From Octopus vulgaris (taxonomy: Eukaryota), in the NCBI GenBank assembly GCA_951406725.2, contig OX597825.1, forward strand, positions 15,252,001 to 15,316,000: DNA of 64,000 nucleotides, in the 5' to 3' direction. Of the stretch, positions 25,439-59,877 are shown piece by piece (within the stretch, counting starts at the first letter, position 1; each line of letters opens with the position of its first letter). A program made the position numbers and the translations under genes. Below the pieces are notes generated by a model that worked only from the letters and a program-made list of their open reading frames with translations, was not told where the DNA came from and searched no databases.

Positions 25439-26027
25439 GTCCGGCCTGAGAGTGAATATTTTCATAAGATATTCTACTTAATCGTTCAGCCCATTCTTGT
25501 TCTCCACCACTTTATTTTGCAAATATTGTAAAGAAACGAAATGTGTCTCTTAGATATCGATTTCTTTCGTAGAGTTACGAAGCCAATTACAGAACTGCGG
25601 ACGTGGGATTCCGCGACATTCTTCTACTACACAAAGTATATTCACGGTTTAATGCTGCCAATTATCTGGATATAGTTTGAACAAATATCTAAATGAGAGA
25701 AAAATATTGAAGAAAATTTAATGCATGGGTAAATATGCATTTGTATTTAAGAGAAATTGTTGTTTCATTTCAAATAAATTCTAATTAAACGAATAATGAG
25801 AAAATCATATTTAGCTAATAACATATCTAGAGTTCTTGCAATGGTTATCGTAATTATTGGATATGTTCAACACTATTAGGCTTACTCTTTTTGGTTTTCA
25901 CATTTTACACATTTTTTAATAGGCTTGGTTTCTGTCTTCAGATATATATTTGTGTATAATATATACGAGGTTGAAGTACGGTGAGCTGCCGGACTCGTTA
26001 GCATGCCGGTTGAAATGCTTAGCGCCG

Positions 26028-26196
26028 TTAACCACTACGCCATATGCCCGTGGGCAGTTATGGAGTGAATTTTGGGGCTTATAAATCTAATATTCCCCTG
26101 TCCTTCCTTAATACCGGTTCCTACAAACAAGATGAAGACAAGTGTCCGTCAAATGTAAATAATGTACATAATCCCTCATCTCTTACATATAGAACT
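26028..26196 (-). mobile_element. 5' end of the tRNA-head/hammerhead element: inverted terminus, TATA box and start of tRNA head
   Basis: 26123-26196 is the reverse complement of 36235-36326; 26031-26049 reads GGGCATATGGCGTAGTGGT on the minus strand, matching the head at 36723. Confidence 0.8.
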
Positions 26197-34901: not shown

Positions 34902-35397
34902 ATGTGGGGATGTAGAACAAAACATAATCGGGAGAATATATTCAGCAATACAGAATAAAGACATATAAACAATTGAGTACGCATAGGAACGCGTGTAGCG
35001 CAGAAACCTTGATATTGTGAGTACATACTAGGGCTTGAACTCTCATCACTAGAGTTCAATCCTGGACGTAGTTATTGTTCTTGCATATCATACGTAGTAC
35101 TTCGTTATCATTTTTGACAATATCCATATCTGGATACAAATTGTTTAATATCTGTCCGCAAACATATTTCAATCTAATGCTAAGACTTCAGTCTTTCTTC
35201 AGTAAACATCGAAATAAACAATTAAATGCTAATAATGAAAGTCACTATTTGGTTTCTTGAATAAATTGCATTTCAGAATAACAAATGAAAATTGATAATG
35301 CTGAATCACAGGCATGAAGAAAACAATGGTGTATGCAATGTGAGTGTATACGACTTCTACAGAAATAGACTTACTGTGTGGGCTAACGTAAGAATAG

Positions 35398-35924
35398 CTT
35401 TCTAACTAGAAAGGGTATGGCCTGGTCAGCCTGTAATGACATGCATAATATCTGGTCATCAAATCTAAGTAGAGACTTCAAACTTGAAATCTTCAAAGCC
35501 ACAGTCGAACCAATTCTACTATATGGCTCAGAAACCTGGACGTTATCAAAGAAGCTTCAGAGGCGGTTGGATGGAACCTACACTCGCCTCCTTATGAGAG
35601 CTCAAAATCTCTCGTGGAAGCGCCATCCAACCAAAATGCAAATATATGGGAAACTACCACCTGTGTCATCTCTTGTGAAAGGTAAGAGAGTCCAGTTTGT
35701 TGGACATTGTTGTAGAGCTGAAAAAGAGGTAATTTCTACTCTTCTCCTCTGGAAGCCATCTACCCACAATACCAGAGGGCGCACACTCTCCTACCCTGAT
35801 GTAATCTCCAGGGATACAGGCATCCAGCAACAGGACCTCCGTAATGCCATGATGGCCCGTGAAGTCTGGCGTAGAATGGTAAATTCCATTGTCTCGACCA
35901 CGGTCGCACAATGATGATGGTGAT
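35398..35924 (+). mobile_element. 5'-truncated RTE-type LINE with open C-terminal reading frame, (TGA)n tail and target-site duplication
   Basis: ORF 35417-35914 contains FKATVEPILLYGSETWTLSKK...RVQFVGHC; TSD GTAAGAATAG (35388) and GTAAGGATAG (35925). Confidence 0.9.
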
Positions 35925-36234: not shown

Positions 36235-36515
36235 GGTTCTATATTTAAGAGATGAGGAATTATGTTCATTATTTACAATATTTACATTATTTACATTTGA
36301 CGGATATTTGTCCTCATCTTGTTTGTTGTTAACACAACGTTTCGGCTGATATATCCTCAAGCCTTCATCAAGTGTCTTGGGGAAATTTCAAACCTGGCTT
36401 CTCAATCGTAAGGTATTTTTCGATGTTGTTGTTGTTGCTCTTCTTGTTGTTGTTGTTCTTCTTCTTCTTCTTCTTTTTCTTCTTCTTTTTCTTCTTCTTC
36501 TTCCTATTATTATTA

Positions 36516-36550
<35 letters not shown>

Positions 36551-36729
36551 ATTGTGTTTTGTGTTATTGTTGTTGTTGTGTTGTTGTTGTTGCTGTGTTG
36601 TTGTTGCTGTGTTGTTGTTGTTGTGTTGTTGTTTTTGTTGTTGTTGTTCATGTCATTGCTGGGAATAGAACTCGGAATCTTGGGGTTAGTAACCAGCGCT
36701 CTTAATCACTCCGCCACATGCCCGTTGGC
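36235..36729 (-). mobile_element. Non-autonomous element: tRNA head, (AAC/AAT/AAG)n tract and hammerhead-containing tail
   Basis: Minus strand GGGCATGTGGCGGAGTGATTAAGAGC...GAGTTCTATTCCC (A/B boxes, 36723 to 36650), microsatellite 36424-36648, HHR 36375 to 36332. Confidence 0.8.
36332..36375 (-). ncRNA. Minimal type-I hammerhead ribozyme fold (C3U variant)
   Basis: ACAC-TTGATGA-A-GGCT tgaggatatatc AGCC-GAAAC GTT-GTGT; palindromic AACGTT stem III. Confidence 0.7.
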
Positions 36730-56107: not shown

Positions 56108-56280
56108 AATATTAGGGAATAAATCCAAATTTACAGGGAAAAAAATCAGATTTAGGATTAAATCCAATTTTATAGTAAAATATTATAAAATATTATTAGA
56201 GACAAAACCACTATTTTGCAAAACAAACAAGGAAAGACTTAATCAATACATAAAATTTTAATAAATAGTCAAAAAAACCG

Positions 56281-56323
56281 CCACTACAATCGTTTCTTGT
56301 CTTGATCGACAATCTTCAGGTGG
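56281..56323 (-). ncRNA. Minimal type-I hammerhead ribozyme
   Basis: Exact reverse complement of 59692-59734. Confidence 0.8.
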
Positions 56324-56754
56324 ACTTCCAATCTAAAATATCAATATTTTAAAATATAAAAATAATAATTTTAAAATAATTAAAGTATGAATGAAAAAAT
56401 ATAAATATATAATCCATATATAACCTATATATAATCCATATATAATCAATATATAAACAATATATAAACTAAAATAAACCTATCAACAATTAAATATAAA
56501 ATATAAAATATAAAATATAAAACAAAACAAAAAAATAATAATAATATAATAATAAACTATATATACACCCATACACATATACCTAATTATATATAACCAT
56601 ATCTAACTACATACACTAAATCACACACCTATATATATATCCCTATACATACACATAAAAACGTCTAGGCAACTATAAATAAATAAAATAGCTAAATACT
56701 TCAACACAATACTTATTCATACTCCCACACACACACACATACAACCCACATTCA

Positions 56755-57830
56755 CGCTCTAGAAAACGGACATCACTCAAAATTATGAACGGAGAAATGG
56801 AATAAATGGAATTAAAAATTATATTCACTTGGTAAAACGAACACTACTTAAAAATTATGAATGAAACAATGCAATAAAACAACAGACATCGCAAATAGAC
56901 ACAAATTACTACGAATTCCTTAACAAACCCACCATGATAAACCAAAACTCATAAAAACATATAATGATAAAATCTCCCTTTACTAAACTCTATCACATAC
57001 CTATATAGCAATCCCCCTAACCTAAACATTCACACACAAATACACACACGTAAACCACACACCCACGACATATACAAATACCCACACCACTTACACATAC
57101 CAATACATACATATAAACCTCAACATATACTCCAAAAACCCACTCAACCCCACACAGACAAAAAAACACAAAAATTATGAATGGATTCTTTTATAAAACT
57201 ACCATGATAATCTAAAACTCACAAAACAGAAATGATAAAACCTCCCTTTACTAAACACTATAACATACTTATATAGCAATCCCTTTAACCTATACATTCA
57301 CACACAAATACACACACATAAACCACACACCCATAACAAATACAAACACCCACCCCACTCACACACACCCACAAGTACATATAAGCCTCAACATATACAC
57401 CAAACAAAATTACTTTACCAAGGAACTTAACATATGTATAAAAAGTATAACCGCTCTGGAAACGAACATCTCTAAATTAATGAATGGAGAAATGGAATAA
57501 ATGGAATTAAAAATAATATTCACGTGGCAAAACGAACACCACTCAAAAATTATGAATGAAACAATGTAATAAAACAACCAACATCGAAAATAGACAAATT
57601 ACCACGAATTCCCTAAAAAAACCATGATAAACCAAAACTCTTAAAAACATATAACGATAAAATCTCCCTTTGCTAAACTCTATAACAAACCTATATAGCA
57701 ATCCCCCTAACCTAAACATTCACACACAAATACACACACATAAACCTCAGACCCACGACTTATACACATACCTATACTAACTTATAAACCTCAATATACA
57801 CCAAAACCCACTCCCTCCCCACACAGACAA
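56755..57830. repeat. Internal direct repeats (about 700-bp period with nested sub-repeats)
   Basis: GGAGAAATGGAATAAATGGAATTAAAAA at 56791 and 57486; CTCCCTTT...TATATAGCAATCCC three times (about 56975, 57242, 57665). Confidence 0.9.
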
Positions 57831-59691
57831 ATTAACACATACATCCCAAAACCTAAATAACAAACCCATATACACATTCACACACAAACACACACACACG
57901 CAAAACACACACACACAACAGATACATATACTCCCTCACATATACGCATATACATACTCACTAAACTCGATATATACAACAATATTTACACAACCACACT
58001 CATACAGATAAATAAATTATACAACTAAAAACTCACACACAATCTCATATACATAAACACTCCTATGAAAACAACATTAAATACATCGTAATTAACCAGA
58101 ATATCAAAAATAACAATATGACATAAGGATAAATAAAATACATACTTACAAGTCAGTTTCAAATTATGAAGTGAAATTAAATTCTTAGCCGTTAAAAAAA
58201 TCAAACCAAAATTACGTTACCATAGAAATAACTTATGTTAAAAAAAGAATACATACAAACATACAATACATACAAACATACAAAACTCAATAAAAACACC
58301 ACTAAATAACACCCATCAACATATAAATATATCCTCCAAAATACATATAACAAATGCATAATAAAAATACATAATAAAATAAAATAAAAATAAAAAAATA
58401 AAAAAATAAAAAAATATATAAATAAAGAAATAATTTAAATGACGTTTACTTTCCATGGCGCGTATTCTTTTTTTAACATAAGTTATTTCTATGGTAACGT
58501 AATTTTGGTTTGATTTTTTTAACGGCTAAGAATTTAATTTAGAGATGTTCGTTTCCAGAGCGGTTATACTTTTTATACATATGTTAAGTTCCTTGGTAAA
58601 GTAATTTTGTTTGGTGTATATGTTGAGGCTTATATGTACTTGTGGGTGTGTGTGAGTGGGGTGGGTGTTTGTATTTGTTATGGGTGTGTGGTTTATGTGT
58701 GTGTATTTGTGTGTGAATGTATAGGTTAAAGGGATTGCTATATAAGTATGTTATAGTGTTTAGTAAAGGGAGGTTTTATCATTTCTGTTTTGTGAGTTTT
58801 AGATTATCATGGTAGTTTTATAAAAGAATCCATTCATAATTTTTGTGTTTTTTTGTCTGTGTGGGGTTGAGTGGGTTTTTGGAGTATATGTTGAGGTTTA
58901 TATGTATGTATTGGTATGTGTAAGTGGTGTGGGTATTTGTATATGTCGTGGGTGTGTGGTTTACGTGTGTGTATTTGTGTGTGAATGTTTAGGTTAGGGG
59001 GATTGCTATATAGGTATGTGATAGAGTTTAGTAAAGGGAGATTTTATCATTATATGTTTTTATGAGTTTTGGTTTATCATGGTGGGTTTGTTAAGGAATT
59101 CGTAGTAATTTGTGTCTATTTGCGATGTCTGTTGTTTTATTGCATTGTTTCATTCATAATTTTTAAGTAGTGTTCGTTTTACCAAGTGAATATAATTTTT
59201 AATTCCATTTATTCCATTTCTCCGTTCATAATTTTTGAGTGATGTCCGTTTTCTAGAGCGTGAATGTGGGTTGTATGTGTGTGTGTGTGGGAGTATGAAT
59301 AAGTATTGTGTTGAAGTATTTAGCTATTTTATTTATTTATAGTTGCCTAGACGTTTTTATGTGTATGTATAGGGATATATATATAGGTGTGTGATTTAGT
59401 GTATGTAGTTAGATATGGTTATATATAATTAGGTATATGTGTATGGGTGTATATATAGTTTATTATTATATTATTATTATTTTTTTGTTTTGTTTTATAT
59501 TTTATATTTTATATTTTATATTTAATTGTTGATAGGTTTATTTTAGTTTATATATTGTTTATATATTGATTATATATGGATTATATATAGGTTATATATG
59601 GATTATATATTTATATTTTTTCATTCATACTTTAATTATTTTAAAATTATTATTTTTATATTTTAAAATATTGATATTTTAGATTGGAAGT

Positions 59692-59734
59692 CCACCTGAA
59701 GATTGTCGATCAAGACAAGAAACGATTGTAGTGG
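59692..59734 (+). ncRNA. Minimal type-I hammerhead ribozyme
   Basis: CCAC-CTGAAGA-TTGTC gatcaa GACAA-GAAAC gatt GTA-GTGG; intact core; predicted cleavage after 59730 (GUA). Confidence 0.8.
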
Positions 59735-59821
59735 CGGTTTTTTTGACTATTTATTAAAATTTTATGTATTGATTAAGTCTTTCCTTGTTTGTTTTGCAAA
59801 ATAGTGGTTTTGTCTCTAATA

Positions 59822-59877
<56 letters not shown>

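What the first reader, a model, noticed from the sequence alone, without database searches (positions are those of the whole stretch)
26028..26196. The same element appears to carry its own upstream TATA box and about 75-bp inverted termini
Seen: on the minus strand this fragment begins with the reverse complement of the element's own 3' tail, followed by about 35 nt, TTTATAA, 29 nt, and the tRNA head GGGCATATGGCGTAGTGGT. The 36.7-kb copy shares the 6 nt just upstream of the head (GTTGGC versus GTGGGC). Combining the two copies gives IR - TATA - tRNA head - microsatellite - HHR - IR. A plain Pol III retroposon cannot copy sequence upstream of its own start site. Inference: either a DNA-transposon shell carries a Pol III ribozyme cassette, or a PLE-style inverted-priming mechanism regenerates the promoter.
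Basis: partly seen in the sequence, partly recalled or inferred. Interest (0 to 1): 0.78.

Follow-up and report, generated by a model that had tools for sequence, protein, structure and literature searches.

The report
Penelope retrotransposon with built-in tRNA promoter
This stretch is the scrambled front end of a broken copy of a common Penelope retrotransposon, not a DNA transposon; the family is unusual because it carries a tRNA-derived segment where most copies begin and its gene avoids T-runs, so it is likely transcribed by RNA polymerase III.

Summary
The bases are as described, but they are the 5' junction of a truncated Penelope/Poseidon-type retroelement (PLE). In other copies the 'upstream flank' runs on into a GIY-YIG endonuclease and reverse-transcriptase ORF; TTTATAA is its last codon plus stop. 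The inverted arm has no fixed length (inner distance 67-1221 nt in 66 head-to-head pairs). In 62 of 66 pairs only one arm has the ~40-nt tail, and 35 of 57 have 9-16-bp target duplications. These are published PLE traits, and a DNA-transposon shell is refuted. Most copies lack the TATA.

The unusual part is a tRNA-derived head (A and B boxes) between the stop codon and the hammerhead. Of 73 arms that reach it, 62 end at -8..+6, and none at -13..-9. The likely start, G(-6), lies 30 nt behind TTTATAA. The 2.4-kb coding strand has no T4 run and T-rich 5-mers at 0.18 of expectation, lower than all 33 control PLE ORFs (0.48-1.91). Best reading: Pol III transcription from the pseudo-LTR yields SINE-like short copies, possibly also the coding RNA. 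No RNA data were obtained, and a Pol II start at the same site is not excluded.

The parts
26123..26196 (+). Inverted arm: 3' tail of the PLE including the optional ~40-nt extension (ends ...ATAGAACT); encodes part of the ORF's N-terminus in full-length copies
26079..26121 (-). Last 14 codons of the RT/GIY-YIG ORF (EPVLRKDRGILDL*); 5'-truncation point of the forward arm at about -72
26079..26085 (-). TTTATAA = end of Asp codon + Leu + stop; TATA-like, 30 nt upstream of the inferred start
   Evidence: promoter role inferred
26050..26078 (-). Spacer; inferred RNA 5' end at G 26055 (-6); mini-palindrome TGCCC-AC-GGGCA overlapping the head start
26028..26049 (-). First 22 nt of the tRNA-derived head with A box (TGGCGTAGTGG, 26042-26032); rest of the copy is lost
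25977..26031 (+). Unrelated SINE fragment abutting the truncated head (internal 12-nt deletion; junction at a short TTA overlap): secondary rearrangement
36651..36729 (-). Second copy: starts at -6, full 73-nt tRNA-like head (36723-36651), B box decayed
36423..36650 (-). Second copy: (AAC/AAG/AAT)n microsatellite between head and ORF start
36331..36376 (-). Second copy: minimal type I hammerhead (stem I GACAC/GUGUU, stem II, palindromic ACGU stem III, GUU triplet); core C3 is changed to U in this copy; lies inside the ORF's 5' end
   Evidence: sequence, stem II folds in L056/L100; Rfam gave no hammerhead hit
36236..36330 (-). Second copy: tail with extension

Best explanation
[quoted passage not shown] Shown: the repeat unit is ATG-hammerhead-tail-RT-GIY-YIG-TAA-spacer-tRNA head-(AAT)n-next ATG; insertions are usually two head-to-head arms of variable length, one with and one without the ~40-nt tail, flanked by a 9-16-bp duplication; most head-bearing arms begin at -8..+6. 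Inferred: A/B boxes (helped in source copies by TTTATAA at -30) start RNA at G(-6); with no T4 terminator in the unit the RNA reads through hammerhead and tail; the element's RT/endonuclease nicks both target strands and starts cDNA at two internal sites bracketing the tail (as shown in vitro for the Anolis element), so undefined 3' ends of Pol III RNA are tolerated; the two cDNA ends join head-to-head by microhomology, often at the GCCC-AC-GGGC palindrome. RNA from 3' pseudo-LTRs and solo copies would give the thousands of SINE-like short copies; longer RNA gives copies such as this one that include the ORF end.
For: PLE identity: ORF ending at TTTATAA with GIY-YIG and RT motifs, RVT_1 E 2.7e-6 (below cut-off), telomerase RT best PDB hit, 1537 homologues, 803-codon open frame in the majority of 18 copies. 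Architecture: 62 of 66 pairs tail-asymmetric, inner distance 67-1221; TSD >=9 bp in 35 of 57 versus 0.89 under shuffled pairing. Start site: 62 of 73 arms that reach +6 end at -8..+6, 0 at -13..-9, 11 further upstream; exact 24-mer counts fall 3293 -> 791 across the head boundary but 791 -> 680 over the next 73 nt; 5 of 8 direct 5' pLTRs in front of ORF body begin at or inside the head. tRNA origin: collinear with host tRNAs, 49/76 to tRNA-Arg(TCT), z 6-7. Terminator avoidance: 0 T4 runs versus 4.3 (P 0.012) or 3.0 synonymous (P 0.026); T-rich 5-mers 4 versus 22.8, ratio 0.18, all 33 control PLE ORFs 0.48-1.91; A4 runs as expected.
Against: No RNA evidence was obtained. TATA at -30 plus a pyrimidine-purine start fits Pol II equally well. 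ARAGORN and Rfam do not call the head a tRNA and it does not fold as a cloverleaf. The 18 copies descend from one family, so T-depletion is one observation; 3 of 13 other host retroelement ORF fragments also had low ratios (0.29-0.40, none significant alone; pooled 131 vs 121), so a host effect is not excluded. Calibration of the genome counts is noisy (exact-match rates 5/14, 5/15, 8/17, 2/17; corrected ORF count 5780 exceeds corrected TATA count 1681). The 96 arms include paired arms and a few duplicated loci, come from contig C1 only, and three were reassigned by eye. 3 of 8 direct 5' pLTRs extend upstream of the head. The palindrome blurs end calls between -7 and +5.
Confidence: 0.62

Rival explanations
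1. Ordinary PLE with a Pol II promoter in the pseudo-LTR (TATA at -30, start at -6); the tRNA-like segment is a passenger, an old SINE or tRNA fragment captured in the UTR.
For: TATA-to-start distance of 30 nt; Drosophila Penelope uses an internal LINE-like promoter in the pLTR (PMC2377424, passages); a TATA+Inr pLTR was described in rotifer Penelope (PMC3846280, passages); a capped RNA would solve translation.
Against: The start coincides with the 5' edge of a full-length tRNA-like unit with both boxes intact; T-run and near-T-run avoidance below all 33 control PLEs, whose pLTRs are mostly T-rich.
Confidence: 0.25
2. The pile-up of 5' ends is a reverse-transcription or integration hot spot (RT stalling or cDNA snap-back at the GCCC-AC-GGGC palindrome), not an RNA start.
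For: 8 junctions in L061-L210 are perfect head-to-head palindromes at this site; palindromes at inverted junctions are published for PLEs (PMC3846280).
Against: Most junctions in the peak are asymmetric or have no inverted head; ends stop at the far (5') side of the structure with none at -9..-13; the hairpin is only 4-6 bp; does not explain T-depletion.
Confidence: 0.1
3. A DNA-transposon shell (fixed ~75-bp terminal inverted repeats) carrying a Pol III ribozyme cassette.
For: Only the look of this single locus.
Against: Variable arms, tail asymmetry, variable TSD length, contiguous RT/endonuclease ORF.
Confidence: 0.01

Closest known systems
Penelope/Poseidon-clade PLEs (Poseidon_Ac of Anolis; Penelope of Drosophila virilis; Adineta Pen2a)
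   Same: Single RT + C-terminal GIY-YIG ORF of ~840 aa, minimal hammerhead overlapping the ORF start, 5' truncation, inverted 5' arm, optional 30-40-nt tail on one end, 8-10-bp TSDs, palindromes at inverted junctions (PMC11167929 parts 1-2 of 4; PMC8557442, PMC3846280, PMC2377424 passages; PMC4209133 part 1 of 4).
   Different: A tRNA-derived A/B-box head in the pseudo-LTR at which most copies begin, and a coding strand free of T4 runs; neither seen in the control PLE loci nor in the passages read.
Schistosoma Sm-alpha / Sj-alpha SINE-like elements
   Same: tRNA-related Pol III promoter followed by a hammerhead (PMC6765202 and PMC2770079, passages).
   Different: Those are described as non-coding tandem repeats cut by the ribozyme; here head and hammerhead are part of the autonomous element itself, and short copies keep the head and insert as inverted pairs.
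TRIMp3 elements (Cassandra, Helenus, Ajax)
   Same: Small-RNA-derived Pol III promoter inside a terminal repeat (PMC10886601, passages).
   Different: Those are non-autonomous LTR elements; that paper argues autonomous partners must use Pol II. Here the repeat belongs to an RT-encoding PLE.
Animal non-LTR retrozymes
   Same: Short hammerhead-bearing derivatives of PLE pLTRs (bioRxiv 10.64898/2026.07.22.740005, part 1 of 5 and passages); tandem derivatives occur here too (L391, L392).
   Different: That text has no occurrence of tRNA, Pol III or promoter; most short copies here are dispersed inverted pairs.

Membership tests
Penelope-like element (EN+, Penelope/Poseidon type) | Single ORF with telomerase-like RT and C-terminal GIY-YIG endonuclease | tested here: met
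   the endonuclease was recognised by motif and by PF01541 on some homologues; Pfam gave no hit on our own endonuclease fragment
Penelope-like element (EN+, Penelope/Poseidon type) | Pseudo-LTR from partial tandem, with minimal type I hammerhead overlapping the ORF start | tested here: met
   direct 5' pLTRs in L384, L385, L397, L400, L402; hammerhead core by sequence; homologue P0003 begins with the parallel TPDDG..PKRCVNN peptide; no Rfam hit
Penelope-like element (EN+, Penelope/Poseidon type) | Variable inverted 5' arm; 30-40-nt tail on one end; short variable TSD | tested here: met
Penelope-like element (EN+, Penelope/Poseidon type) | Clade placement by RT phylogeny | not tested
   no tree with named reference elements was built
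TIR DNA transposon / MITE | Fixed-length terminal inverted repeats with symmetric ends | tested here: not met
TIR DNA transposon / MITE | Fixed-length TSD | tested here: not met
   6-16 bp, mode 11-13
tRNA-derived SINE (short copies) | tRNA-derived head with A and B boxes at the 5' end of copies | tested here: met
tRNA-derived SINE (short copies) | Transcription by RNA polymerase III | not testable with these tools
   only indirect: T-run depletion
tRNA-derived SINE (short copies) | Separate non-autonomous family with LINE-type 3' simple-repeat tail, single-arm insertion | tested here: not met
   short copies are a sub-sequence of the autonomous PLE and often insert as inverted pairs
Functional tRNA gene | Cloverleaf recognised by ARAGORN/Rfam | tested here: not met

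The most novel reading that the evidence does not exclude
An autonomous, protein-coding retrotransposon transcribed end to end (about 2.8 kb) by RNA polymerase III from a captured tRNA promoter, with its whole ORF purged of terminators, its stop codon doubling as the TATA box, and its own pseudo-LTR acting as a built-in SINE: LINE-like master and SINE-like parasite in one sequence.
Probability: 0.33. Interest if true: 0.82.

Novelty: new variant of a known kind. Interest (0 to 1): 0.56.

Why it matters
The inverted ends are textbook Penelope. What would matter is the promoter: autonomous retroelements are assumed to need Pol II (or Pol I co-transcription), and SINE-type Pol III heads are seen on non-autonomous elements. 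A PLE with a tRNA head in its pseudo-LTR gives a direct route from PLEs to Sm-alpha-like 'SINE plus hammerhead' elements. If the coding RNA is also Pol III-made, it raises a testable question of how an uncapped RNA is translated. The family also offers thousands of insertions for testing the two-start-site model of PLE integration (tail on exactly one arm in 62 of 66 pairs).

Tried and rejected
Rfam over the window and over family copies found neither tRNA nor hammerhead; ARAGORN found no tRNA in the window or 60 loci. blastn of the head against phage records gave only E 2 on an annotated tRNA (not used). The repeat finder was swamped by microsatellites. A search of G000 with a distant PLE protein returned only this family (30 of 30 loci), so no same-genome PLE control exists here. 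Viral contigs held no relative. An apparent 5' boundary near -770 was an artefact: L017 and L023 continue into RT. Calibrated genome-wide copy numbers were too noisy to use. No RNA data were obtained, so start site, strand and polymerase remain inferred. The search of earlier findings returned nothing. Literature searches for a tRNA/Pol III promoter in PLEs found no description; Repbase, Dfam, subscription journals and the supplementary repeat library of PMC13282606 were not seen and may already hold this family.

Full report
Observation. To the left an unrelated SINE fragment abuts the head, so the rest of this copy is gone. The 36.7-kb copy starts 6 nt before the head and has no TATA and no inverted arm.

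What the flank is. A DNA search of the genome gave 2014 candidates, 40 scored; 35 of the 40 matched only from query position 69-76 onward, at 91-95%. In the 30 loci fetched the shared sequence continued upstream for tens to hundreds of bases and translated, in the frame that ends at TTTATAA, to ...CVYSIPCSCGKLYKGET...EVKIIDREHHWKIRKLKEAAHM...IWEPVLRKDRRILDL*, and further up to RT motifs. A 569-aa open stretch (L041) hits RVT_1 at E 2.7e-6, below the curated cut-off; Pfam gave nothing on a 205-aa endonuclease fragment. It has 1537 homologues at E <= 1e-20, and their profile's best PDB hit is telomerase RT. The column majority of 18 long copies has one open frame of 803 codons. The 'TATA' is thus the last codons and stop of a Penelope-type ORF. 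The unit is ATG-hammerhead-tail-RT-endonuclease-TAA-spacer-head-(AAT)n-next ATG; homologue P0003 starts with a parallel peptide over its hammerhead. The host is probably an octopus; this rests on recalled SINE sequence and genome size, not on a call.

The inverted termini. Among loci L002-L240, 66 head-to-head pairs were found, with inner distances of 67-1221 nt; in 62 exactly one arm carries the ~40-nt tail extension. Of 57 asymmetric pairs with callable ends, 35 have a direct repeat of 9-16 bp at the outer ends (mode 12), against 0.89 under shuffled pairing (maximum 4 in 200). This excludes a TIR transposon. It matches published PLE anatomy: inverted 5' copy and one-sided tail (PMC8557442, passages), 8-10-bp TSDs and palindromic junctions (PMC3846280, passages), and extension of both target strands from two internal RT start sites that bracket the tail (PMC11167929, parts 1-2 of 4). 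The window locus is one such junction: tail-bearing inverted arm joined to a forward arm truncated at about -72.

The head. It is 73 nt, collinear with host tRNA genes (49/76 to tRNA-Arg(TCT), 47/75 to Arg(TCG), 45/75 to Thr(AGT); z 6-7; 30 tRNA loci compared), with A and B boxes in place (box consensus recalled), but it is not called by ARAGORN or Rfam and does not fold as a cloverleaf. In samples anchored on the hammerhead (90 loci) or on the 3' half of the head (30 loci), all from contig C1, 96 arms carried the head. Of these, 23 end at +7..+23, 62 at -8..+6, none at -13..-9 and 11 further upstream (three arms with small deletions were moved to the long class by eye; paired arms and a few duplicated loci are included). 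Genome-wide exact 24-mer counts are 4994 (head +32), 3293 (head +2), 791 (stop/TATA) and 680 (ORF, -111); calibration on long copies is noisy (5/14, 5/15, 8/17, 2/17), so these are supporting only. Only 2 of 54 pairs in L061-L210 include the TATA. So most copies begin at the head and lack the TATA. The outer limit, T(-7)/G(-6), is 30 nt behind TTTATAA. Of 8 copies with a direct pseudo-LTR in front of ORF body, 5 start at or within the head and 3 reach into an upstream ORF end (30 of 82 matches examined); several tandem derivatives join an ORF stub to the head at -7..-5. Eight junctions are perfect palindromes at GCCC-AC-GGGC.

Terminator test. Pol III stops at T runs (established knowledge). 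The majority coding strand has no T4 run in 2.4 kb (4.3 expected by shuffling, P 0.012; 3.0 by synonymous shuffling, P 0.026), and none occurs in the pseudo-LTR profiles; 5-mers with >=4 T number 4 against 23, while A4 runs are as expected. Eighty PLE loci from metagenome contigs have more T4 runs than expected (701 vs 480). For the 33 near-intact ORFs of >=1.5 kb the 5-mer ratio is 0.48-1.91, against 0.18 for the family majority and 0.12-0.61 for its 18 decayed copies. None of the 80 control loci had an A/B-box match between ORF end and hammerhead (23 spacers read). Against this: the family is one evolutionary observation, and 3 of 13 other host retroelement fragments had ratios of 0.29-0.40.

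Mechanism. Shown: PLE identity, insertion anatomy, pile-up of 5' ends at the head, T-depletion. Inferred: Pol III starts at -6 and reads through the terminator-free unit; the RT starts inside the RNA at the tail, so ragged 3' ends do not matter; two cDNAs primed on opposite strands join head-to-head. Short RNAs from 3' pseudo-LTRs yield the SINE-like majority; longer RNAs yield copies with ORF end and TATA, such as this locus. Whether the translated RNA is also Pol III-made is open. A Pol II promoter with the same start remains the main rival, since no RNA data were obtained.

Comparison. It is a member of the endonuclease-bearing PLEs by every feature tested; clade placement was not tested by a tree. 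It works like a SINE in its short form, and resembles Schistosoma Sm-alpha (tRNA-related head plus hammerhead; PMC6765202, PMC2770079, passages) and the Pol III-promoter TRIMs (PMC10886601, passages), all non-autonomous. Eight library searches showed no report of a tRNA-derived promoter in an autonomous PLE; passages of PMC13282606, PMC4209133, PMC2377424, PMC6685494 and the retrozyme preprint mention none. Repbase, Dfam and supplements were not seen.

Verdict. The tRNA-headed, T-run-free Penelope family behind them is a new variant worth a bench test.

Noticed in passing
window 56184-59831: A 3.6-kb structure with two arms of about 1.3 kb that are 100% complementary (599 + 702 nt, offset by a 1-nt indel) around a 1053-nt AT/AC-rich spacer that itself has an inner inverted repeat; no ORF of 90 aa or more. 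Recent foldback element, organelle-derived insert or assembly artefact.
   Followed up: partly
L067, L068, L073, L083, L087, L094 (upstream of the hammerhead): The (AAT)n microsatellite of the pseudo-LTR is often directly preceded by the 3' end of other non-LTR elements (R4/Dong-like by recalled motifs), which appear to insert there and separate head from hammerhead.
   Followed up: no
L390-L393, L396, L406, L408: Tandem, internally deleted derivatives (head/hammerhead/tail plus a 100-220-nt ORF stub, repeated), resembling retrozymes arising from this PLE.
   Followed up: partly
L385 (G000:C1 around 71.38 Mb): A partial-tandem copy with a direct 5' pseudo-LTR starting at -301, i.e. TATA and head in front of a long ORF: the arrangement expected of a source copy.
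   Followed up: no
window 35387-35911 (+): 175-aa open stretch of an RTE-like LINE RT C-terminal region (label from recalled motifs).
   Followed up: no
window 19708, 21303, 21734, 25977, 26226, 31415, 37523, 11027: At least eight copies of an abundant unrelated SINE family; one abuts the finding on each side.
   Followed up: no
L083, L087, L175: Three host R4-like ORF fragments with low T-rich 5-mer ratios (0.29-0.40); could be chance or a host-wide avoidance of T runs.
   Followed up: partly
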